The position numbers and the translations under genes are program-made. From the NCBI GenBank assembly GCA_031551355.1, contig JAVBNT010000004.1, positions 3,067 through 67,066 on the forward strand: a stretch of DNA of 64,000 bases, in the 5' to 3' direction. Shown piece after piece: positions 1,444-53,529 of the stretch. The notes below the pieces were generated by a model. It was not told where the DNA came from. It saw nothing but the letters and a program-made list of their open reading frames with translations, and did no database searches. Position 1 is the stretch's first letter, and every line of letters begins with the position of its first letter. This stretch comes from Candidatus Xenobia bacterium. Its GTDB lineage: Bacteria; Vulcanimicrobiota; CADAWZ01.

Positions 1444-2250
1444 CTAGATAGAAACGCTGTCTTCCTTTTCGACCCTTCCCGTTCTAAAGGATATGCCTCT
1501 TGAAGAAGGTGCCTGAATAAATTCTATAAGGTGATTAAGTTCTTCACTGGGAGTGAGCGTCGATAAAATCTCTTCAATTGCCGCTGTCCGCGATTTCCTG
1601 CTTAAAATGTTATAAGCTCTTTTTAACATTATTCTGACTTCGGAATTAATCCCGTTACGCCTTAAGCCAATTACATTCAATCCGTAAAATCTTGCCGGAG
1701 AACTCGTAACCATACTGAACGGGGGAACATCCTTGACTATCCTCGCACATCCCCCGACCATCGCCAGACGGCCTATTCTTACAAATTGATGAACACCGGA
1801 CATACCGCCGACAACAGCCTTGTCTTCTATCTGAATATGCCCCGCAAATGAAGTTGCATTCGAAACCAGTATATTTGAACCGAGAAGACAATTATGTCCG
1901 ACATGCACGTAAGCCATAATAAAATTGTTGTCGCCCAGAATCGTTGCCTTACCCTCTCCTGTTGCTCTGTGCATCGTAACAAATTCACGTATTACATTGC
2001 CCTTGCCTATTTTAAGATAAGACTCTTCACCTTTAAACTTCAAATCCTGAGGCTCTTTCCCAAGAACGGCGCCATGGAATATTTTGCAGTCAGCTCCAAT
2101 CTCGGTAAAACCGTCAATACGAACATGGGCGTCTATAACCGTTCCGGGGCCAATTTTCACGTTAGGACCTATGATACTGTAAGGTCCGACACTGACATTT
2201 TCCGCTAAAAGCGCCCCTTTTTCAATGATCGCAGTCGGGTGAACAAACAT
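1444..2250 (-). CDS. lpxA: Acyl-ACP--UDP-N-acetylglucosamine O-acyltransferase
   Basis: VHPTAII start, hexapeptide repeats, PQDLKFKGE, IREFVTMHRAT, HVGHNC, VHQFVRIG, KDVPPF, GLNVIGLRR. Confidence 0.97.
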   Translation of the reverse strand: MFVHPTAIIEKGALLAENVSVGPYSIIGPNVKIGPGTVIDAHVRIDGFTEIGADCKIFHGAVLGKEPQDLKFKGEESYLKIGKGNVIREFVTMHRATGEGKATILGDNNFIMAYVHVGHNCLLGSNILVSNATSFAGHIQIEDKAVVGGMSGVHQFVRIGRLAMVGGCARIVKDVPPFSMVTSSPARFYGLNVIGLRRNGINSEVRIMLKRAYNILSRKSRTAAIEEILSTLTPSEELNHLIEFIQAPSSRGISFRTGRVEKEDSVSI

Positions 2251-2265
2251 CTAAAACCCCCTAAC

Positions 2266-3246
2266 TTAGCCCATATCGGCTATTTCCAAAAACTTCTTAG
2301 CAATGGCACTGTCTGCCATACTGACTATTTTCATATTATCAACGGCTCTTATCGCCAACTGAAGGGCATTTTTGCCGTCTTCGCCCGTAACCATAGGCGT
2401 CTTATGGGCTACAATACAATCCATAAAATGCTCCAGCTCTAGCAGCAAAGGCTCACTCCTCCTTATCGGAACAAACTCAGGAGGATTAGTATGCCCGGCC
2501 TGAGGGAGCTTTACTACAGACAAAGTCTGATTCATAAAATCAAGCTGACAGGTCTTATCAGCCTCTATAACCTTAAGCTGGCGCAGTCTTTCACCGCTGA
2601 TACGGCTGGCAAACAGGCTGGCAATGGCACCGTTTTGAAACAAAATCTGTACAAGAGCCATATCTTCCTGTGCGGAATACAGCGAAAGTCCGTAAGCACT
2701 CACCTCTTCAACAGGACTTTTTACCATGTTTAAAAGTATATCAAAATCATGAATCATTAAATCCCATATAACGCCGACATCTAAATTTCTTGAACTTGGA
2801 TAGCCGATACGGTGTGACTCCGTGTATATAGGATTGGATACTATCTTTTTCAGTTGGGCAACAGCAGGATTAAATCTCTCCAAGTGACCCACCTGAAGAA
2901 TCAGATCATTTGCCTTGGCAAGATCAACGATCTCTTTTGCCTCTTTCAGACTGTGTGTTATAGGCTTTTCAACCAAAACATGAATTCCGTTATTTAAAAA
3001 GTCCATAGCCATTCTGTGATGCAGGCTGGTAGGAACAGCTACATTTACAGCCTGAACCCTGTCAAACAGTTCCCTGTAATCCTTAAAATACTGGGTATTA
3101 AACTGCTTTGCATAATCCAGGCCTCGTTCCTCATCAAGATCGGAAATACCAACAAGCGTAACATTCGGCATTTCCGAATAAACACGTGCATGGTTTTTTC
3201 CCATACTCCCCACACCTATAACAGCTACAGGAACAGGCGCACTCAT
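2266..3246 (-). CDS. Gfo/Idh/MocA family oxidoreductase (GnnA-like UDP-GlcNAc 3-dehydrogenase candidate)
   Basis: GVGSMGKNHAR Rossmann motif, HVLVEKPI, QVGHLERFNP, DLMIHD; ends 15 bp before the lpxA start. Confidence 0.85.
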   Translation of the reverse strand: MSAPVPVAVIGVGSMGKNHARVYSEMPNVTLVGISDLDEERGLDYAKQFNTQYFKDYRELFDRVQAVNVAVPTSLHHRMAMDFLNNGIHVLVEKPITHSLKEAKEIVDLAKANDLILQVGHLERFNPAVAQLKKIVSNPIYTESHRIGYPSSRNLDVGVIWDLMIHDFDILLNMVKSPVEEVSAYGLSLYSAQEDMALVQILFQNGAIASLFASRISGERLRQLKVIEADKTCQLDFMNQTLSVVKLPQAGHTNPPEFVPIRRSEPLLLELEHFMDCIVAHKTPMVTGEDGKNALQLAIRAVDNMKIVSMADSAIAKKFLEIADMG

Positions 3247-46922: not shown

Positions 46923-48230
46923 CTAATACATCAAAATATCATCAATTTTCGACAGCGGAACGGCATAGAACCTTATCGGCCCGTTACACCCGCAAGGCAG
47001 GCTGAATATATAAGATTTAAACAGAGAATGGTTCCTGGGGACACGTTCATTTTCGAAAATCCATGCACGGTGTGCTTCCTGTGAAGACAGCATAATCTCA
47101 TCAGGAAACATTATTTTTGCGAATAAACTATAAATAGCCGCGACATCACCGCTTACCGACAAATCTCTGGGAACCTCTTTTAAAACAGCCAGGGAACGGC
47201 CTCCTGCGGCCGATGCCATTAAAACAACCGATTCATCATGCCCTGTATCATTGATAATACATAGATCCAGAAAGTAAACAACGCCAAAATTGCCGACGGC
47301 TTTTTGTATGTAAAGACCGGGAGACGGCAAACTGTCATAATATTCACCTGGGTTACATGACGAATATATACCCTGAGTGGCACTGGCTATTTCAGCATAG
47401 GAAATCTCCGACAGCCGGTATGAAAACTCGCCCCTCAGCTCCGTATAGTCGAAATAGCCTCTGACTCTTTGAATCGTTTCCGACGATTCATGCAAAAGCG
47501 GATCTACGGCAAGCGGAACCGATAAAATATCATCACCGGCAACAAAACGCTCCTTTCCGGCTGAGACGGCCACGACCACAGTTACGTCAGCAGGCGTCCC
47601 ATCTTCGCAGGCAGACAGGAAATCGCTCATAAAACTTAATGTCTCACCGTTATTAAAAGGAAGCGGTAAAACAAATTTTTCACCCGGATCTATTTTAAAA
47701 GTTCCTTCACCGTAACTCTGCGGCAACAGCCATCTTATAAAAGCATTTCTCCCGGCCACAGCCGGATCGCTTGACATAGTCTCTAAAGATGGTACAATCC
47801 TGCCGTCCGGCCTGAATTCAAGCGTAGACGTTCTCAAACTGCTTATATATACGGGCCGGTTATTGTTATTTACAAAAATGATATTCATATCGGCATTTAT
47901 GCCAAGCATATTCTGATGGTGGAGCAAAATACGGAAATAACCGCCGGTATAAGCTCTGAAAACATAGCAAGGCAGCTTTTCTTCAGAGAAACTTTCAGGT
48001 GAATTACTGAATAAAAAAAAATTTTTCGAAGACAACTTCTCGAGTTTTTTGTCCGGCATTATCTGACGCCCGAATTTAGGTTTTATCCATACGGTTGTGC
48101 CATGAGGAATCCATTTATAAAAAGCCGGACTCTTGGATGAGTAATGGTAAATGCCCAAATTAAAAAAGATTGCCGTTAAGGCAAACATAAAAATATAAAA
48201 GAAAACAGTTCTGTAAAAATATTTAAACAT
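46923..48230 (-). CDS. Membrane-anchored hypothetical protein, DUF3370-like; paralogue of 4670..6433
   Basis: N-terminal TM; FSNSPES, RILLHHQN, GNFGVVYFLDL. Confidence 0.65.
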   Translation of the reverse strand: MFKYFYRTVFFYIFMFALTAIFFNLGIYHYSSKSPAFYKWIPHGTTVWIKPKFGRQIMPDKKLEKLSSKNFFLFSNSPESFSEEKLPCYVFRAYTGGYFRILLHHQNMLGINADMNIIFVNNNNRPVYISSLRTSTLEFRPDGRIVPSLETMSSDPAVAGRNAFIRWLLPQSYGEGTFKIDPGEKFVLPLPFNNGETLSFMSDFLSACEDGTPADVTVVVAVSAGKERFVAGDDILSVPLAVDPLLHESSETIQRVRGYFDYTELRGEFSYRLSEISYAEIASATQGIYSSCNPGEYYDSLPSPGLYIQKAVGNFGVVYFLDLCIINDTGHDESVVLMASAAGGRSLAVLKEVPRDLSVSGDVAAIYSLFAKIMFPDEIMLSSQEAHRAWIFENERVPRNHSLFKSYIFSLPCGCNGPIRFYAVPLSKIDDILMY

Positions 48231-48395
48231 ACACCCGGTATTATATTATTTAGACATCGTAACGTCAAAATAATAAATACGGCATGTGATAAAAATGACC
48301 TGCACAAAAGTATTCCCAACAAAGAATAAGCTGAGAACAGGGGAATAAATTCTCGCGAAGCAACATATCATCATACTTTATTCCGGTTGTCATCG

Positions 48396-48751
48396 AAAAA
48401 CAAGGTCAGGCAAGACGAGCGGAGCATAGTCTTCTCTCAATGCGGAGCGAGAACCGGAGAGCCAGATGACATATCACCGCAGTTTCCTTATAAAATTAAA
48501 TTTGTTCAAAACAAGGTCAGACGGCGGCGGACGATTGTGCCTTGAGCTAAGCGTAGAAATACTACGCGTGCGAAAGACATCAATCGATCCGACAGCGTAT
48601 CACCGCAGTTTTCCTTACAAAAAATTAAATTTGTTCAAAACAAGGTCAGACGATGGCAGACGATGGCGCATTGAGCTAAGCGTAGAAATACTACGCGTGC
48701 GAGATGTGACAATCGAGCCGACGGCGTATCACCGCAGTTTTCAACAAATTT
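48396..48751 (+). repeat. Tandem array of three structured hairpin units (period 129 bp for units 2-3)
   Basis: AAAACAAGGTCAG...TATCACCGCAGTTT three times; units 2 and 3 share GAGCTAAGCGTAGAAATACTACGCGTGCGA. Confidence 0.85.
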
Positions 48752-48763
48752 AAAAAATGACTA

Positions 48764-48792
48764 TTGCAGAGGAATTAGCTTTGTGCTATAAT
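48764..48792 (+). promoter_or_regulatory. rpmB promoter
   Basis: TTGCAG-17bp-TATAAT with TG extension. Confidence 0.6.
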
Positions 48793-48853
48793 GTTGGAGC
48801 TTTATATTAAGTTATCAAACTGCCCTGACAGGTGGAATTGAGGAGGAATAGAT

Positions 48854-49051
48854 ATGTCGGTTATATGTGAAAACTGCGGCAAAGGACCGTTAAGCGGAAA
48901 TAACGTAAGCCACTCAAACAGAAAAACAAGACGCAGATGGCTTCCAAATCTCCAGAAAGTTACTCTTCAGCTTAGCTCCGGAGTTACAAAAAGCGTAAAA
49001 ATTTGCACAAGATGCCTGAGAACATTCAACAAAAAAGGTATACTTGTATAA
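48854..49051 (+). CDS. rpmB: 50S ribosomal protein L28 (Zn-ribbon form)
   Basis: [35 protein letters not shown]; GAGGAGG RBS. Confidence 0.97.
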
Positions 49052-49071
49052 CAGTTAAAGCCCGGTAAAAT

Positions 49072-49113
49072 AAAAAACTGCCTTGACAAACTAAAGTTTT
49101 CAGGCAGTTTTTT
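49072..49113. terminator. Bidirectional terminator between rpmB and EamA
   Basis: AAAAAACTGCCT...AGGCAGTTTTTT. Confidence 0.7.
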
Positions 49114-49271
49114 ATTTTACCGGACAGGCAGCCAAATCTATGCGGTTCAGACGCAAAGGAAGTGGGATGTCTGCAAATATTGTGGAAAAACTAATGAACG
49201 ACCTGTTTGACCGGGTTAAAAAAAGCAAAATGCAGCCACTAATAAAAAGCCGCATACTCAAAGCAAATTGC

Positions 49272-50168
49272 CTAGGCCTTCCCCACCCTCTCAACCTTGG
49301 CATAATTAACCCCAACCATTACCATGACAATCCCTATAATTTGCAGTAAAGTCATCGGCTCATGCAATATAAGCGCCGCCGCCACCATCACCATTGGTCT
49401 TTGCAGCATATTAAAGATTGATACCCTGGTGGAACCGAGTATATGCAGCGCCGCCAAAAAAGCCACATTAGCCACCGCAGCGGCAAAACCTATCCATGCA
49501 CCGATCTTCCATGCTGCAGCCGGTATAGGCGGTGACCACGGAACAAAAAAAGCGGCAACCACAACCGCGTTGATCCAGAAAATATACAGCGAAACTATTA
49601 CCGGCGTGAATGTTTCCGTCACGCTTTCCATTCTGATCCTGTATACCACCGTACAGGCCATGCTGGCAAGAACGAACAAAATACCGGTGAGATCGGTGTC
49701 TTGAAACCCGAAACTACCGATATTTAAACTCAGCAGCACCCCGGCAAAACAAAGCACAAACCCCAGCCAAAATTTGAGTCCTATCTTTTCCCGGCCTCTG
49801 AACATATTTATAAGCGCTATTATCGAGGGCACTGTCGTTATGAGCGTTAGAAAAACAACTACAGATACACGTCCAAGAGCCAGCAGCGTGAAAAGGTTAT
49901 TGAGCAACAGAAGCACGCTGACGCCGGCAACACTTTTTATTCCGCTCCAGCCAACCCATTTGAATTTTCTGGTGATGGGCAAGATCAGGACAGCAGCCAC
50001 AAGTGTTTTCATAATTAAAAGCTGATACGGCGTTATCGAGACCTGATACCCTATTTTTACAATTATCGGCTCAATCGAAGCGGCAAGCAGTGCTAATATG
50101 GTCCAAAACGCGGCCATTCTATTCAGTGATTCCTTGTTTTTAACTGTCGCTACCGTCATATTTTCCAT
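49272..50168 (-). CDS. EamA/DMT family transporter
   Basis: About 10 hydrophobic segments in two EamA repeats (GREKIG, GSTRVSIF..LQRP, LHEPMT..QIIG); start could be 50174, 50168 or 50159. Confidence 0.9.
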   Translation of the reverse strand: MENMTVATVKNKESLNRMAAFWTILALLAASIEPIIVKIGYQVSITPYQLLIMKTLVAAVLILPITRKFKWVGWSGIKSVAGVSVLLLLNNLFTLLALGRVSVVVFLTLITTVPSIIALINMFRGREKIGLKFWLGFVLCFAGVLLSLNIGSFGFQDTDLTGILFVLASMACTVVYRIRMESVTETFTPVIVSLYIFWINAVVVAAFFVPWSPPIPAAAWKIGAWIGFAAAVANVAFLAALHILGSTRVSIFNMLQRPMVMVAAALILHEPMTLLQIIGIVMVMVGVNYAKVERVGKA

Positions 50169-50172
50169 TCCC

Positions 50173-50302
50173 ATTATTGACACTTAGTGTCAATAATAAA
50201 TTAAAGCCAGGCTTTTGTCAACATTATTTTTGCCTTTATGAAAGCTTATTGACATTTAAAATGAATTGAAATATAATTATCAAAATTGATAGCAAGTCTC
50301 AA
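50173..50302. promoter_or_regulatory. Divergent promoters with two Fur-type operators
   Basis: Plus strand TTGACA(50249)-17-TATAAT(50272), then TTGATAGCAAGTCTCAA (50286-50302). Minus strand TTGACA(50221)-17-TATTAT overlaps the perfect 12-1-12 palindrome ATTATTGACACT-T-AGTGTCAATAAT (50173-50197). Confidence 0.75.
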
Positions 50303-50370
50303 AATAATCCCGGAATGGTTGAATGTGTTAATATCATAAAAAAACAAGACAGGCCTTGTAATTCAATAAT

Positions 50371-50814
50371 GTGAAGATTGTGACTTTAAGAACAATGACC
50401 CCTATACAAAAATTTAATCAATACCTGCATTTAAAAAATCAGCGCTTGACTCCATCGCGCAATAAAATACTGAAAATGCTTTTCAAACGTCACGATCACA
50501 TTTCCCTTGAAGAGCTTCTTGACTGGTCCGCTCAGAATGACATTTCCAGAGCAACCCTATTCAGAACGCTTACCCTGTTGATCGACGCCGGAATGATTGC
50601 CCAAATATTTGACCAAAAGAAACGGGCCCACTACGAGCATATATACGAACACAAAAAACATCATCACCTGGTCTGCCTTAAATGCGACAAAATAATAGAA
50701 ATTGAAGATAATTTTTCAGAAAAAACAGCCGAAGAACTGTGCATAAAAAACAATTTTGAACATCAATACAATATTTTTAAAATTTACGGCATATGCGGCG
50801 ATTGCAAAGCATAG
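50371..50814 (+). CDS. Fur family transcriptional regulator
   Basis: RLTPSR, HISLEEL, ISRATLFRTL, HYE, HHHLVCLKC, YGICGDC; start GTG 50371 or ATG 50395. Confidence 0.93.
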   Translation: MKIVTLRTMTPIQKFNQYLHLKNQRLTPSRNKILKMLFKRHDHISLEELLDWSAQNDISRATLFRTLTLLIDAGMIAQIFDQKKRAHYEHIYEHKKHHHLVCLKCDKIIEIEDNFSEKTAEELCIKNNFEHQYNIFKIYGICGDCKA

Positions 50815-50831
50815 ATTTTTTTAATACAATA

Positions 50832-50848
50832 TTGATACCTGGTCTCAA
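50832..50848. promoter_or_regulatory. Third Fur-type operator, upstream of the opine dehydrogenase RBS
   Basis: TTGATACCTGGTCTCAA, the same TTGAnA-N5-TnTCAA pattern as 50177 and 50286. Confidence 0.65.
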
Positions 50849-50866
50849 AACATCAAGGAGAATAAA

Positions 50867-51937
50867 ATGACTGCAGAAAAAAATGTAGGGATTATTGGTT
50901 CAAGCAATTCGGCATGGGCTCTGTCATGCTATCTGACAGGCATGGGTCATAAAGTCGATATGCTCGTCAGAGGGGAGCAAAAAGCCGCGCAAATACCCAA
51001 AACCATCAATGCTGAAGATAAGATAGAAGGAGCCTTCACGCTCAATTCGGTTAAATACGACACAAAGGATTTTATGGAATCCGTATCAACAATATTTATT
51101 GCTACAGTAACGACGGCGTATCCCGACGTGATAAAAAGACTACTCCCATTTGTATCCGAAAGCCACAATATAATACTTTTCTCCAGCAAACTCGGCGGAG
51201 TCTGCGAAGTTTCGACACTAATAAAAAGAGCCGGCAAAAGGAATATTCCCGTCATAGAAACGGACGCAATCTTTGCCTGCAGAATAAAAAATGAAAATAC
51301 CATACATATAAAAGGATTTAAAAAGTGGAATCTTTATTCATGCGACTCATATACAAACACAATTAGGCATGGTCATATCATAAAGAAATTCTTCCCCTTT
51401 CTGCAGCCGGCAGACAACTTTCTGCAGCGCGGTCTCTCCGATTTTGGAGCAATGAGCCATCCGCTGATAATGATGATCAATATGAATACGGTCGACAGGG
51501 GAGACAAATTTCTATTCTATTATGAAGGCTTCACCCAAAAAACATTCTCCCTTCTTGAAGCGGTAGAAAAGGAACGCAATCTGATTGCCAAAGCATATGG
51601 AACAAGCCTGATAAGCTTAAGAGAGATGCTTGACAAGTATTATTGCTGTCTTAAAGAATCTCTTTACGATACGTTACTAAACGTACCCAACTATAAAAGC
51701 AGTATCTCTCCGGATACTCTCGAGAACAGGTATATCTTCGAAGACGTATCCAATACGCTGGTACCGGCGCATTATATGGCTGAGCTCGCAGGAATAAAGA
51801 TACCGGTTCTTGATTCGATAATCTCACTGTCATCAGTCGTGCTGAACAACGATTTTCTGACAAACGGCAGAACTCTTGAAAAGCTGGGGTTTAGGGGGAT
51901 GTCTAAGGAGCAGATAATTGACCGCATGGCAGGATAA
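50867..51937 (+). CDS. NAD/NADP octopine/nopaline (opine) dehydrogenase family protein
   Basis: N-terminal Rossmann-like VGIIGSSNSA, ETD.IFACR, GAMSHP..MMIN, FLFYYEG, E.VEKER..IA.A.G, RYIFEDV, GRTLEKLG. Confidence 0.87.
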   Translation: MTAEKNVGIIGSSNSAWALSCYLTGMGHKVDMLVRGEQKAAQIPKTINAEDKIEGAFTLNSVKYDTKDFMESVSTIFIATVTTAYPDVIKRLLPFVSESHNIILFSSKLGGVCEVSTLIKRAGKRNIPVIETDAIFACRIKNENTIHIKGFKKWNLYSCDSYTNTIRHGHIIKKFFPFLQPADNFLQRGLSDFGAMSHPLIMMINMNTVDRGDKFLFYYEGFTQKTFSLLEAVEKERNLIAKAYGTSLISLREMLDKYYCCLKESLYDTLLNVPNYKSSISPDTLENRYIFEDVSNTLVPAHYMAELAGIKIPVLDSIISLSSVVLNNDFLTNGRTLEKLGFRGMSKEQIIDRMAG

Positions 51938-51938
51938 T

Positions 51939-51978
51939 AAAAAATGCGGCGTCTCTGAAAACGAGGCGCCGCATTTTT
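51939..51978. terminator. Bidirectional terminator
   Basis: AAAAAATGCGGCGtCTC...GAGGCGCCGCATTTTTT between convergent genes. Confidence 0.8.
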
Positions 51979-52217
51979 TAACTGCTTAAGGCGAATTTGA
52001 CGCTCTCCCTGCCTTCACACTCAATAACGACAGGTATTTCCGACTGTTTGAAATACATATCAGGTTTTACACGCTGACCGTTTACCATCACAAAACCTCT
52101 GGAAATAAGCTGTCTGGCTTCTTTTACAGTCTCAGCAAAGGACGCGGCAATAATCAATTTAACGATCCACAGACCGTCTCCGGGAACTTCATCCCTGAAA
52201 ATAATTGTTTCCTTCAT
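51978..52217 (-). CDS. Stand-alone S4-like RNA-binding domain protein
   Basis: GLWIVKLI..A.FA.T..EARQLISRG.V.VNGQRV; begins 4 bp after the pdp stop. Confidence 0.7.
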   Translation of the reverse strand: MKETIIFRDEVPGDGLWIVKLIIAASFAETVKEARQLISRGFVMVNGQRVKPDMYFKQSEIPVVIECEGRESVKFALSS

Positions 52218-52221
52218 AAAA

Positions 52222-53529
52222 TCAGTTTACCACATCCAAAATCAGCGGCTGAATCCTGACTTCCGACTGTTTAATCTCAAAGCTTTTAAGCAAACGCACG
52301 GAAGCTTCTTCTGCGGAAGCTGCCGAAGAAGCATGAATATCGGCAACTTTCTCTCCCTTTTTGATACGGTCACCGACACGTTTGTACATCACAAGTCCGA
52401 CCGAATAATCAATATCGTCTTCCTTGCGGACTCTTCCTGCGCCAAGATCTCTTGCAATTATACCAAGTTCCAATACATCTATGGAATTAAGATATCCTTC
52501 ATCACCGCAGATGACTTCCTTCACTACTTTGGCCGGGGATAGCAAAGAAAGATCGTCAAGAGCCTTCGATGAAGAGGCCTGGGCTTCGAGAAGCTGCCTC
52601 ATTTTCTCAAGAGCCCTACCGCTCGTGATCATTTCCTCAGCCATCGCAATCGCTTTATCAAGATCTTTCTCCAGTCCCGACATTTGAATAAGGTGGCCGG
52701 ATAAAACAACAGATACTTCACGGAGCGCCGAATCTTTACGCTGCCCCTTAAGGATCTCAAAAACTTCACGCACCTCAAGGGCATTGCCGATATGCGAATT
52801 TAAAGGCTGTCCCATATCGGTGATAACAGCTCTTGTATCCTTACCGGCAAGTTTACCGATACCGACAAGGGCTTTGGCAAGCTCACGGGCTTCTTCAATA
52901 GTTTTCATGAATGCTCCGCCGCCCACCTTGACGTCAAGCAAAATAACGTCGGAACCGGCGGCCAGCTTTTTGGACATAACCGAACCGGCAATCAGCGGTA
53001 TACTGTCTACGGTAGCAGTAACATCCCTGAGGGCATACATTTTTTTATCGGCAGGAGCCAAATCGCCTGTAGGACTAATTACCGCAATACCGATATTTTT
53101 TACCTGCTGTATAAACTCTTCTTCCGAGAGATTAATACGGTAACCGGGAATGGCTTCAAGTTTATCAAGGGTTCCACCTGTATGTGCAAGTCCGCGCCCC
53201 GACATTTTTGCAAAAGGAATACCGGCAGCGGCAACAATAGGCCCAATTAAAAGCGTAGTCGTATCGCCTACTCCGCCGGTGCTGTGTTTGTCAACCTTGA
53301 CTCCTTTTATTGAGGATAGGTCTACCTTATGGCCGGAGTTGGTCATTGCCATCGTAATATCCTTTGTTTCCTCATCGTCCATACCCTTTATAAAAACAGC
53401 CATTAAAAATGCACTCATAAGATAGTCCGGAATATCACCTGAAGCATATCCCAAAACCATATATTCAATTTCCTTTTTACTAAGGCGCAAGCCGTCACGC
53501 TTTTTGATAATAACATCATAAGGCTTCAT
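52222..53529 (-). CDS. pdp: Pyrimidine-nucleoside (thymidine) phosphorylase
   Basis: IIKKRDG, VDKHSTGGVGD, KMSGRGLAHTGGTLDKLE, ADKKMYALRDVT, LDVKVG.GAFMK, LGAGR. Confidence 0.96.
   Translation of the reverse strand: MKPYDVIIKKRDGLRLSKKEIEYMVLGYASGDIPDYLMSAFLMAVFIKGMDDEETKDITMAMTNSGHKVDLSSIKGVKVDKHSTGGVGDTTTLLIGPIVAAAGIPFAKMSGRGLAHTGGTLDKLEAIPGYRINLSEEEFIQQVKNIGIAVISPTGDLAPADKKMYALRDVTATVDSIPLIAGSVMSKKLAAGSDVILLDVKVGGGAFMKTIEEARELAKALVGIGKLAGKDTRAVITDMGQPLNSHIGNALEVREVFEILKGQRKDSALREVSVVLSGHLIQMSGLEKDLDKAIAMAEEMITSGRALEKMRQLLEAQASSSKALDDLSLLSPAKVVKEVICGDEGYLNSIDVLELGIIARDLGAGRVRKEDDIDYSVGLVMYKRVGDRIKKGEKVADIHASSAASAEEASVRLLKSFEIKQSEVRIQPLILDVVN

What the first reader, a model, noticed from the sequence alone, without database searches (positions are those of the whole stretch)
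49272..51937. Fur-regulated opine dehydrogenase plus EamA exporter: candidate new minimal metallophore system
Seen: EamA is divergent from fur and an opine dehydrogenase, and the module is closed by terminators on both sides. Three 17-bp boxes TTGAnA-N5-TnTCAA (50177, 50286, 50832) lie one before each gene; two overlap or directly follow near-consensus sigma70 promoters. The enzyme keeps the HP and RY..ED catalytic motifs, but its Rossmann loop is atypical (GSSNSA). Established: staphylopine and pseudopaline pathways use Fur/Zur control and an opine dehydrogenase (CntM) with a nicotianamine synthase-like CntL, and Pseudomonas exports the product via the EamA protein CntI. Here the enzyme looks like the octopine/nopaline (CENDH-like) family, and no CntL or importer is adjacent. 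Inference: a one-enzyme N-carboxyalkyl-amino-acid chelator made and exported under a dedicated Fur paralogue.
Basis: partly seen in the sequence, partly recalled or inferred. Interest (0 to 1): 0.78.

Follow-up and report, generated by a model that had tools for sequence, protein, structure and literature searches.

The report
Iron-regulated opine enzyme and exporter
A metal-sensing repressor, probably iron-sensing, sits beside an opine-making enzyme and an exporter and appears to switch them off through three matching DNA sites, so this uncultured gut bacterium may release a small iron-binding compound made by one enzyme.

Summary
EamA (49272-50183, -), a Fur-family gene (50371-50814, +) and a CENDH-like opine dehydrogenase (ODH, 50867-51937, +) are real. 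The three 17-bp palindromes are 3 of only 10 matches in the 3.45-Mb genome. Each lies at or just after a -10 hexamer. The same box, once letter for letter, stands before the orthologous genes in relatives.

New here:
- The ODH-EamA pair is the conserved unit: EamA lies directly downstream in 62 of 75 loci with room, across several phyla.
- The genome has no CntL/NAS and only one other Fur-family gene, which is PerR-like.
- The effector is probably iron. Orthologous Fur genes lead fur-feoA-feoB operons next to DUF2023-ODH-EamA. DUF2023 is a strong iron-starvation marker in Bacteroidetes.
- Two invariant residues (K108, G194) sit where an Arg/Gly pair gives Asp/Glu specificity in characterised ODHs. 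The Rossmann fold looks NADPH-type.
- One RNA-library contig spans fur, box 3 and ODH.

Best reading (about 0.45): iron-repressed synthesis and export of an acidic opine that binds iron. Chemistry, export direction and chelation are inferred.

The parts
49272..50183 (-). EamA/DMT-family membrane transporter, 303 aa from the listed GTG. The true start is probably one of the ATGs at 50174, 50168 or 50159.
   Evidence: ORF. Pfam EamA 79.6 bits with two stretches. Orthologues at 1e-131 to 1e-79 lie beside ODH in relatives. An RNA-library contig covers 49526-49964.
49223..49259 (-). Weak hairpin followed by a U-run downstream of EamA; a possible weak terminator.
   Evidence: Fold: -14 kcal/mol for the 71-nt stretch, z -0.32, and 72 of 200 shuffles fold as well. 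Not significant.
50177..50193 (.). Box 1, TTGACACTTAGTGTCAA, an 8-1-8 perfect palindrome. Operator at the EamA promoter.
   Evidence: Scores 21.3 with the matrix built from relatives only. An orthologous box lies before EamA in L011 at 1964.
50193..50221 (-). Sigma-70-type promoter of EamA: TTGACA-17-TATTAT.
   Evidence: 11 of 12 matches.
50249..50277 (+). Sigma-70-type promoter of fur: TTGACA-17-TATAAT.
   Evidence: 12 of 12 matches.
50286..50302 (.). Box 2, TTGATAGCAAGTCTCAA. Operator starting 9 nt after the -10 of the fur promoter.
50371..50814 (+). Fur-family metalloregulator, 147 aa from GTG; an ATG lies at 50395.
   Evidence: Pfam FUR 78.5 bits. All NCBIfam equivalogs fall below their cut-offs. 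Best solved relatives are C. jejuni Fur at 4e-15 and M. tuberculosis FurB at 1.9e-13. C102, C105, C142, C145, H97 and H99 are invariant in 9 aligned Fur-family proteins.
50802..50830 (+). Weaker promoter-like site before ODH: TTGCAA-17-TACAAT.
   Evidence: 9 of 12 matches; a consensus match only.
50832..50848 (.). Box 3, TTGATACCTGGTCTCAA. Operator between fur and ODH.
   Evidence: The identical 17-mer stands before the ODH orthologue in L012 and L013 at 7120, where the proteins are 56% identical.
50855..50860 (+). AAGGAG ribosome-binding site, 6 nt before the ODH ATG.
   Evidence: Read from the sequence.
50867..51937 (+). CENDH-like opine dehydrogenase, 356 aa.
   Evidence: Pfam Octopine_DH 112 bits. 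1bg6 matches at E 1.1e-34 over residues 4-347. Invariant residues. An RNA-library contig at 50338-51923 spans fur, box 3 and ODH.
51938..51980 (.). Strong two-way intrinsic terminator.
   Evidence: -28.1 kcal/mol (z -8.1) on + and -24.5 kcal/mol (z -6.3) on -.

Best explanation
This is an iron-starvation module. When loaded with metal, most likely Fe2+, the Fur-family dimer binds three 17-bp palindromic operators (consensus TTGAyAC-N3-GTrTCAA). Each operator sits on or just after the -10 hexamer of a promoter for eamA, for fur itself or for the opine dehydrogenase. Binding there blocks transcription.

When iron falls, the three genes are derepressed. The ODH, a CENDH-like enzyme that is probably NADPH-dependent, joins an acidic L-amino acid of the Asp/Glu type to a small 2-keto acid. 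The product is an N-(1-carboxyalkyl) amino acid with three carboxylates. The EamA transporter exports it. Outside the cell it acts as a low-molecular-weight ligand that keeps iron soluble for uptake through general routes such as FeoB. No nicotianamine-synthase step and no dedicated importer is involved.

Shown: the gene families, the operators and their conservation, the ODH-EamA linkage, and the presence of fur-ODH in an RNA library.

Inferred, with my estimates: Fur acts through the boxes (about 0.85); iron is the effector (about 0.7); the substrate class; the direction of transport; and chelation (the whole chain about 0.45).
For: Operators.
- 3 of the 10 genome-wide matches lie within 672 bp.
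- A matrix built only from 4 relatives' boxes ranks the window's three boxes first in the genome, at 21.8, 21.3 and 18.8; the next site scores 17.7.
- Boxes occur before the orthologous genes in L011, L003, L012, L013 and L015. One is identical to box 3 although the proteins are 56% identical.
- Each box sits at a -10 hexamer.

Regulator.
- It belongs to the FUR family.
- It has the Cys4 structural site and H43, E89, H97, H99 and E110 in all 6 orthologues.
- The position of the Zur-type Cys (M. tuberculosis C76) is Ile91.

Iron.
- Of 150 other genomes of the phylum, only G003 and all 4 genomes of genus g18 have orthologues of this Fur (44-49% identity). All five also carry the ODH.
- In G021 and G033 the operon is fur, a 90-aa His/Cys protein, feoA, feoB, with the box at the fur start.
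- In G033 feoB is followed by box, DUF2023, box, ODH, EamA.
- DUF2023 is induced 160- to 600-fold by iron depletion, together with flavodoxin, in three Bacteroidetes (PMC10434189, passages read).

Module.
- EamA is next to ODH in 10 of 11 relatives' loci; the 11th contig ends at ODH.
- EamA lies directly downstream in 62 of 75 loci with at least 900 nt of room.

Chemistry.
- Catalytic H198, R288 and D293 are invariant.
- ArODH A111 and N198 align with K108 and G194, both invariant.
- Arg plus Gly at those positions gives Asp/Glu specificity, and swapping them reverses it (PMC10787698, section 28 read).
- ArODH D34 aligns with V34, followed by the conserved R35. By general knowledge of the Rossmann fold this indicates NADPH.
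- A FolC-like ligase follows EamA in 10 of 80 loci. FolC-type enzymes extend N-substituted glutamates.

Expression. One contig of an RNA library covers 50338-51923 with no differences.
Against: - No enzyme assay, product or metal-binding datum exists. A secondary-amine tricarboxylate would be only a moderate chelator.
- No importer, receptor or reductase lies beside the pair in this genome. Across 80 loci no transporter recurs apart from EamA, except a fused ABC permease in one lineage.
- Most ODH-EamA loci carry no Fur gene. I did not search them for a Fur-type box: the one motif search there counted only perfect 6-mer inverted repeats and could not have found even the window's own boxes.
- In this genome feoB lies elsewhere, behind a DtxR-like gene, with no box. 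The iron link therefore rests on relatives.
- All NCBIfam Fur, Zur and PerR equivalogs score below their cut-offs, so the metal cannot be read from family membership.
- The specificity position carries Lys, not Arg; the analogy is untested.
- EamA-type carriers can also import. RNA-library contigs may contain DNA and cannot prove a single transcript.
Confidence: 0.45

Rival explanations
1. Iron-sparing redox valve. Under iron shortage the Fe-S-rich routes for disposing of reducing power, such as the [FeFe] hydrogenase and ferredoxin-dependent steps, fail. The ODH then re-oxidises NAD(P)H by making an opine, which EamA excretes as a fermentation end product. The product has no role in metal capture.
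For: The organism looks anaerobic: it has a HydABC-type [FeFe] hydrogenase with HydF, and rubrerythrin. The fourth-best box-like site in the genome, TTGAGACCAGGTATCAT at C13:5296, lies between hydF and the hydrogenase operon. Opine dehydrogenases serve as anaerobic NADH sinks in marine invertebrates (general knowledge; mentioned in PMC7438024). The absence of an importer would need no explanation.
Against: About one site of that score is expected by chance in this genome. The Rossmann fold has V34-R35 where NAD-dependent ArODH has D34, which points to NADPH and to biosynthesis (inference). The pair is also kept in record titles naming aerobes such as Cystobacter fuscus and many Obscuribacterales. 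Spending one amino acid for each pair of reducing equivalents and then exporting it is costly. The FolC-like ligase found in 10 of 80 loci suggests a built product, not a waste product.
Confidence: 0.15
2. Uptake and cleavage. EamA imports an exogenous opine or opine-type metallophore made by other gut microbes. The ODH oxidises it to release the amino acid, the keto acid and any bound metal.
For: ODHs are reversible, and ArODH was found as a catabolic enzyme (recalled; cited as ref. 56 in PMC7438024). Some DMT/EamA carriers are importers (recalled). No biosynthetic partner is present in the genome.
Against: The NADPH-type fold favours the reductive direction (inference). In characterised opine-metallophore clusters EamA is the efflux component (PMC7438024, passages). 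No binding protein or receptor is linked.
Confidence: 0.1
3. The architecture is the same, but the regulator senses another signal (Zn, Ni, Mn or Co) or peroxide, so the module is a zincophore- or nickelophore-like system as in Cnt.
For: Known opine metallophores are mainly Zur-controlled zincophores (PMC7438024). The second-best solved relative is M. tuberculosis FurB/Zur at 1.9e-13. In G026 the fur gene faces an ArsP_1 permease plus DUF1980 operon and small His/Cys proteins of unknown metal preference. The 6-5-6 shape of the box resembles the Nur box (recalled, not tested).
Against: feoA and feoB share the operon with the orthologous fur. DUF2023, which carries the box, is an iron-starvation marker. 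There is no Cys at the Zur-type ligand position, and Glu rather than Asp stands at the two acidic ligands. The genome's other Fur-family gene is the PerR-like one.
Confidence: 0.15
4. The ODH-EamA product has no metal role; it could be a signal, an osmolyte or a detoxification product. Fur control in this clade is a local regulatory accident.
For: Most of the 80 loci have no metal gene nearby. The most frequent upstream neighbours are PAS histidine kinases, in 7 of 59 scanned.
Against: Iron or metal links arose more than once: the box/Fur clade, a divergent Fur-family gene directly before ODH in L058, which sits elsewhere in the tree, and an FTR1 iron permease divergent from ODH in L063. In G033 the pair is embedded in a fur-feoAB cluster.
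Confidence: 0.15

Closest known systems
Cnt opine-metallophore systems: staphylopine, pseudopaline, yersinopine and bacillopaline (CntK/L/M plus an MFS or EamA exporter plus an ABC or TonB importer)
   Same: An opine dehydrogenase is linked to an EamA-type exporter under a Fur-family metalloregulator. The expected product class is an N-carboxyalkyl amino acid (PMC7438024, passages).
   Different: No NAS/CntL exists in the whole genome. The dehydrogenase is not of the CntM family: PF10100 scores 15.6 bits against a cut-off of 25, and NF033600 scores 19.1 against 675. No importer is linked. The effector is probably iron, not zinc. The phyla differ: that survey found CntM homologues in only four phyla, none of them those named in the record titles.
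Arthrobacter opine dehydrogenase (CENDH/ArODH, PDB 1bg6) and the hot-spring mODHs of Telek et al. 2024
   Same: It has the same fold and catalytic residues: full-length match at E 1.1e-34, with His202/Arg292 aligned to H198/R288. Like the mODHs it carries a basic residue plus Gly at ArODH positions 111 and 198, and it lacks the acidic residue at position 34.
   Different: The basic residue is Lys, not Arg. The loop reads GxGNSA, and GSSNSA in this protein. No activity has been measured. ArODH and the mODHs are treated as stand-alone biocatalysts; searches of PMC10787698 for 'genomic context' and 'phylum' found no occurrence. Its supplementary tables were not seen.
Classical Fur regulons with 7-1-7 Fur boxes controlling feoAB and siderophore genes
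   Same: It is an autoregulated Fur-family repressor. The palindromic operator overlaps the promoter. The outer bases TGAyA...TrTCA resemble the Fur 7-1-7 half-site TGATAAT (recalled consensus). feoAB belongs to the regulon in relatives.
   Different: The inner operator positions differ: AC-N3-GT replaces AAT-N-ATT. In this genome the regulon appears to be reduced to one locus of three sites. The regulated biosynthetic gene is an ODH, not an NRPS or NIS enzyme.
Other small aminopolycarboxylate metal ligands: EDDS of Amycolatopsis (Zur-controlled), rhizobactin and aspergillomarasmine (all recalled; no call)
   Same: The idea is the same: a small secreted amino-polycarboxylate made by very few enzymes and controlled by a Fur-family regulator.
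   Different: Those pathways use other enzyme families, as far as I recall. None has been compared here.

Membership tests
Fur family (PF01475) | Match to the family model above its cut-off | tested here: met
   78.5 bits against a cut-off of 23.1, covering residues 24-132.
Fur family (PF01475) | Structural Cys4 zinc site (two CxxC motifs) | tested here: met
   C102, C105, C142 and C145 are invariant in 9 aligned Fur-family proteins.
Fur sensu stricto (iron sensor) | His/Glu regulatory-site ligands, and equivalog-level similarity | tested here: inconclusive
   H43, E89, H97, H99 and E110 are kept in all 6 orthologues. The NCBIfam Fur equivalogs score 69.9 against 220 and 59 against 146, both below cut-off. 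Metal binding cannot be tested with these tools.
Zur | Cys ligand in the regulatory site (M. tuberculosis FurB C76 position), and an equivalog match | tested here: not met
   The aligned position is Ile91. NF008646 scores 47.5 bits against a cut-off of 167.
PerR | Equivalog match, Asp ligands, and linkage to peroxide-defence genes | tested here: not met
   NF052545 scores 53.5 against 180. Glu stands at both acidic positions. The other Fur-family gene of the genome is the one next to rubrerythrin.
Octopine_DH / CENDH-like opine dehydrogenases (PF02317) | C-terminal helical domain match and full-length similarity to a solved ODH | tested here: met
   112 bits against a cut-off of 30. 1bg6 matches at E 1.1e-34 over residues 4-347.
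Octopine_DH / CENDH-like opine dehydrogenases (PF02317) | Catalytic His and Asp, plus substrate Arg | tested here: met
   H198, R288, E292 and D293 are invariant in 26 homologues and align with ArODH His202 and Arg292.
Octopine_DH / CENDH-like opine dehydrogenases (PF02317) | GxGxxG/A dinucleotide loop | tested here: inconclusive
   The clade consensus GxGNSA fits GxGxxA. This protein has G-S-S-N-S-A, with the second Gly replaced by Ser; the same holds in 3 of 26 aligned sequences. Cofactor binding was not tested.
CntM / staphylopine dehydrogenase (PF10100, NF033600) | Match to the family model above its cut-off | tested here: not met
   15.6 bits against 25 and 19.1 bits against 675; only residues 46-131 match.
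Cnt-type opine metallophore gene cluster | NAS-like CntL next to the dehydrogenase | tested here: not met
   PF03059 has no match at E<=0.1 in the 99.89%-complete genome. None appeared among the neighbour families of 80 loci, but only the 25 commonest families per set were listed.
Cnt-type opine metallophore gene cluster | Dedicated importer (Opp- or FecCD-type ABC, or a TonB receptor) in the cluster | tested here: not met
   None lies between the flanking genes in the window. Only one lineage has a fused BPD_transp_1 permease after EamA.
Cnt-type opine metallophore gene cluster | EamA or MFS exporter in the cluster | tested here: met
   EamA is divergent here and lies directly downstream in 62 of 75 loci.
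EamA / DMT transporters (PF00892) | Two EamA repeats | tested here: met
   79.6 bits with 2 stretches. No solved relative is found by sequence.

The most novel reading that the evidence does not exclude
ODH plus EamA is a previously unrecognised two-gene pathway, spread across several phyla, for a secreted opine-type aminopolycarboxylate iron ligand made in one step from an acidic amino acid and a keto acid. It needs no nicotianamine-synthase step and no private importer. In Xenobia-like bacteria it belongs to a Fur regulon with a new operator, together with feoAB and DUF2023. Some lineages extend the product with a FolC-like ligase.
Probability: 0.4. Interest if true: 0.8.

Novelty: new variant of a known kind. 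Interest (0 to 1): 0.62.

Why it matters
If the reading is right, opine-type metal ligands are not confined to the CntL/CntM systems of four phyla. They would also exist as a much simpler one-enzyme-plus-exporter module in uncultured gut and environmental lineages whose record titles name Xenobia/Vulcanimicrobiota, Obscuribacterales/Melainabacteria and Myxococcota.

The finding gives three directly testable things:
- A defined operator and regulator pair for a phylum with no genetics.
- A candidate function for a large clade of unannotated 'octopine/nopaline dehydrogenase family' proteins.
- A specificity hypothesis (K108/G194) that a simple enzyme screen can check.

It also places DUF2023, one of the strongest iron-starvation markers in Bacteroidetes and of unknown function, in a second, unrelated iron regulon. 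Aminopolycarboxylate chelators made by one enzyme would also be of biocatalytic interest.

Tried and rejected
- The first scan of genome contigs, with the single ODH protein, confirmed no relative. The second scan, with alignment A1, gave 80 loci.
- Regulon beyond the locus. The best extra site in G000 (C13:5296, before the hydrogenase operon) has a score at which about one chance site is expected. It is kept only as a lead. Sites at C33:8749 and C49:180676/181450 were inspected; the C49 pair lies inside a 1368-aa ORF. Both were dropped.
- In genus g18, extra perfect boxes stand beside genes with no obvious metal role: L135 at 3982, and L136 at 5450 next to an MtnA-like gene named by eye. Their meaning is open. 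With one mismatch allowed, the pattern is no commoner than its reversed control in those genomes.
- A search for shared perfect 6-mer inverted repeats upstream of ODH in 78 loci found none beyond close kin. That search cannot see imperfect palindromes such as the window's own boxes.
- The neighbour census of 59 upstream and 61 downstream ORFs found no recurrent importer or biosynthetic gene except the FolC-like ligase. ORFs were picked greedily, which is unreliable in high-GC loci, and only the 25 commonest families per set were listed.
- DUF2023 and the FolC-like protein are not found in G000.
- No Rfam family matches 48000-52300.
- Parts of the stretch had no cover in RNA run X2, and run X3 had no cover at all.
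- Literature searches found no paper on an ODH-EamA module without CntL, or on ODHs in these phyla. Searches for DUF1980 and ArsP_1 gave nothing useful.
- I did not fold the proteins, did not compare EamA with CntI (no sequence in hand), and did not run complex prediction, the search of protein representatives or the protein-atlas search.
- The careful tree search did not finish. The quick tree is used, and the partial row L060 was left out.
- Supplementary tables of PMC10787698 (Tables S2-S7) were not seen and may bear on the residue comparison.

Full report
WHAT IS THERE

The window holds three genes. An EamA transporter gene lies at 49272-50183 on the - strand. Divergent from it, on the + strand, lie a Fur-family gene (50371-50814) and an Octopine_DH-family gene (50867-51937). 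The flanking genes look unrelated. Beyond EamA, read by eye, are a ribosomal protein L28-like ORF and a 128-nt tandem repeat. Beyond the strong terminator are a small S4-like ORF and nucleoside phosphorylase genes.

They are the only matches in the window; chance expects 0.20, and 1 of 100 shuffles reached 3. In the whole 3.45-Mb assembly (57 contigs, 99.89% complete by marker genes) the pattern occurs 10 times, 3 of them within these 672 bp.

Each box sits on or just after a -10 hexamer:
- a 12-of-12 promoter for fur;
- an 11-of-12 promoter for EamA;
- a 9-of-12 promoter-like site for ODH.

This is the usual position for a repressor that blocks RNA polymerase. The terminator after ODH is strong in both directions. 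The one after EamA is not better than shuffled sequence.

ARE THE BOXES REAL OPERATORS?

The best evidence comes from relatives. ODH orthologues with E below 1e-80 occur in 12 of 41 genomes searched, G000 included. In the same-family genome G003 the arrangement ODH-fur / EamA is the same, and TTGATATTTAGTATCAA stands before EamA. In genus g18 of another family, boxes stand before ODH and before a DUF2023 gene, and a one-mismatch copy lies at the fur start. The 17-mer before ODH is identical to window box 3, although the proteins are only 56% identical.

A weight matrix made only from four relatives' boxes ranks the window's three boxes first in the genome (21.8, 21.3, 18.8). The next site scores 17.7. 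I take the operators as real, with consensus TTGAyAC-N3-GTrTCAA. The outer bases recall the classical Fur 7-1-7 half-site (recalled consensus); the inner bases differ.

In this genome the regulon seems confined to this locus. The one further good site, between hydF and a HydABC-type [FeFe] hydrogenase operon, has a score at which about one chance site is expected.

WHICH METAL?

The genome has only two Fur-family genes. The other one directly precedes rubrerythrin and is therefore PerR-like. All NCBIfam equivalogs for Fur, Zur and PerR score below their cut-offs, so family membership does not settle the metal. Three lines point to iron.

1. Of 150 other genomes of the phylum, only G003 and all 4 genomes of g18 have orthologues of this Fur (44-49% identity). 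All five also have the ODH. In G021 and G033 the gene leads an operon of fur, a 90-aa His/Cys membrane protein, feoA and feoB, with the box at its start. In G033 feoB is followed by box, DUF2023, and the contig end. That end overlaps, within the DUF2023 reading frame, the contig that carries box, ODH and EamA. The two contigs therefore probably form one cluster (the join is my inference).

2. DUF2023, which has its own box in g18, is induced 160- to 600-fold by iron depletion together with flavodoxin in P. gingivalis, P. intermedia and B. thetaiotaomicron (PMC10434189, passages read).

3. The His/Glu ligands of the Fur regulatory site are kept in all six orthologues. The Zur-type Cys position is Ile91.

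Against this, in G000 itself feoB lies elsewhere, behind a DtxR-like gene named by eye, with no box. In G026 the fur gene faces an ArsP_1 permease plus DUF1980 operon of unknown metal preference. I put iron at about 0.7.

THE CONSERVED UNIT IS ODH PLUS EAMA

An alignment-based scan of one genome per species gave 173 confirmed relatives; the best 80 loci were kept. EamA lies directly downstream of ODH in 62 of the 75 loci that have at least 900 nt of room (64 of all 80). It is divergent in the window and in L024, and upstream in L051.

Record titles name Obscuribacterales/Melainabacteria, Vulcanimicrobiota/Xenobia/Eremiobacteraeota, Myxococcota and a few others. MAG labels are not reliable in detail.

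The only other recurrent neighbour is a protein of about 486 aa after EamA, found in 10 of 80 loci. It is weakly FolC/Mur-ligase-like: TIGR01499 at 1.2e-7, and a folylpolyglutamate synthase structure at 8.8e-4. It is absent from G000.

Fur adjacency is rare. It occurs in the box-bearing clade, which is one clade in a quick tree (SH-aLRT 99; careful search unfinished). It also occurs in L058, where a short and very divergent Fur-family ORF directly precedes ODH-EamA and sits elsewhere in the tree. One locus, L063, has an FTR1 iron permease divergent from ODH. Metal links therefore arose more than once, but most loci show none.

THE ENZYME

The ODH matches Arthrobacter CENDH/ArODH (1bg6) over its full length at E 1.1e-34. 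CntM-type enzymes match only marginally, below the family cut-offs. The catalytic residues H198, R288 and D293 are invariant in 26 homologues.

Two further invariant residues are informative. K108 and G194 align with ArODH A111 and N198. Telek et al. showed that Arg plus Gly at these two positions gives specificity for Asp/Glu-type amino acids, and that swapping both residues reverses the preference (PMC10787698, section 28 and passages read; supplements not seen). A Lys here suggests an acidic amino-acid substrate, but this is an analogy and not a test.

ArODH D34, the acidic residue typical of NAD-dependent Rossmann folds, aligns with V34, which is followed by the conserved R35. That argues for NADPH and for the synthetic direction. 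The odd GSSNSA loop is a variant of the clade's GxGNSA, shared by 3 of 26 sequences.

A FolC-like partner in some loci would fit an N-substituted glutamate as product (inference).

EXPRESSION

In a metatranscriptomic library of an invertebrate gut, one contig covers 50338-51923. It spans fur, box 3 and almost all of ODH, without a single difference. Another contig covers 49526-49964, inside EamA.

This library comes from the same study as the run that may be the source of this DNA. Contigs cannot prove a single transcript, and RNA libraries can carry DNA. The result is consistent with a fur-ODH co-transcript and with expression in the habitat, and shows no more than that.

READING AND RIVALS

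Best reading (0.45): iron-repressed synthesis and export of an acidic opine, a tricarboxylate, that serves as a small iron ligand and works with general uptake such as FeoB.

Rivals:
- An iron-sparing redox valve (0.15).
- Import and cleavage of foreign opines (0.10).
- The same design sensing another metal (0.15; this concerns the effector only and can be combined with any of the functional readings).
- A product with no metal role (0.15).

COMPARISON WITH WHAT IS KNOWN

The module works like the Cnt systems: ODH, an EamA exporter and a Fur-family switch. It fails their defining tests, because it has no NAS/CntL, no CntM-family enzyme and no importer. I therefore do not file it as a Cnt system.

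My literature searches found no description of an ODH-EamA module of this kind. The survey of opine zincophores found CntM homologues in only four phyla (PMC7438024, passages).

VERDICT

It is a new variant of a known kind, interest 0.62.

Noticed in passing
G000 contig C13:5296-5312 (L104:1797-1813): The fourth-best box-like site in the genome, TTGAGACCAGGTATCAT, lies 30 nt after hydF and about 185 nt before a HydABC-type [FeFe] hydrogenase operon. About one such site is expected by chance, so it is only a lead for a wider iron regulon.
   Followed up: partly
G000 contig C49 (L022:1495-2472): The genome's only other Fur-family gene (132 aa) is followed 18 nt later by a rubrerythrin-like gene. 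This is a PerR-like pair.
   Followed up: partly
L107:1223-1495 (-) and 2074-2358 (+); also in L012, L106, L109: Two small (90-95 aa) hydrophobic proteins flank the g18 fur gene. They carry a motif PLH.PFH.H...C.FC.WE, have no Pfam match, and may be a new family of small metal-binding membrane proteins. One of them heads an ArsP_1 permease plus DUF1980 operon.
   Followed up: partly
L058:1833-2219: A short, divergent Fur-family ORF directly precedes ODH-EamA in an unrelated lineage. A direct repeat ATTTGCA occurs twice, 11 nt apart, just upstream. Its TTGCA core recalls the Nur box (recalled, untested).
   Followed up: partly
window 48465-48742: A tandem repeat of about 128 nt (2 to 3 copies, 89% identity between the two long copies) lies between a 435-aa gene and an L28-like ORF. 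No Rfam match.
   Followed up: partly
G000 contig C12:11516-14186: feoB (669 aa) overlaps the end of a 223-aa ORF whose start looks like a DtxR-type repressor (named by eye). No Fur-type box lies upstream, so ferrous iron uptake in this genome seems to be under a different regulator.
   Followed up: partly
L019:5075-5978: In one relative (G017) the EamA gene next to ODH is split into two overlapping ORFs. This could be a frameshift, a sequencing error or decay.
   Followed up: no
L016-L019 (L093:8165-10141): In genus g8 a fused double BPD_transp_1 ABC permease of about 660 aa follows ODH-EamA. Its best NCBIfam likenesses are the ModB, PhnU and ThiP types, all below cut-off. No ATPase or binding protein is adjacent.
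   Followed up: partly
L063:995-3233: Genes that look by eye like cofD and cofE (F420 biosynthesis) lie beside the FTR1 permease - ODH - FolC-like locus of a Selenomonadaceae-labelled MAG.
   Followed up: no
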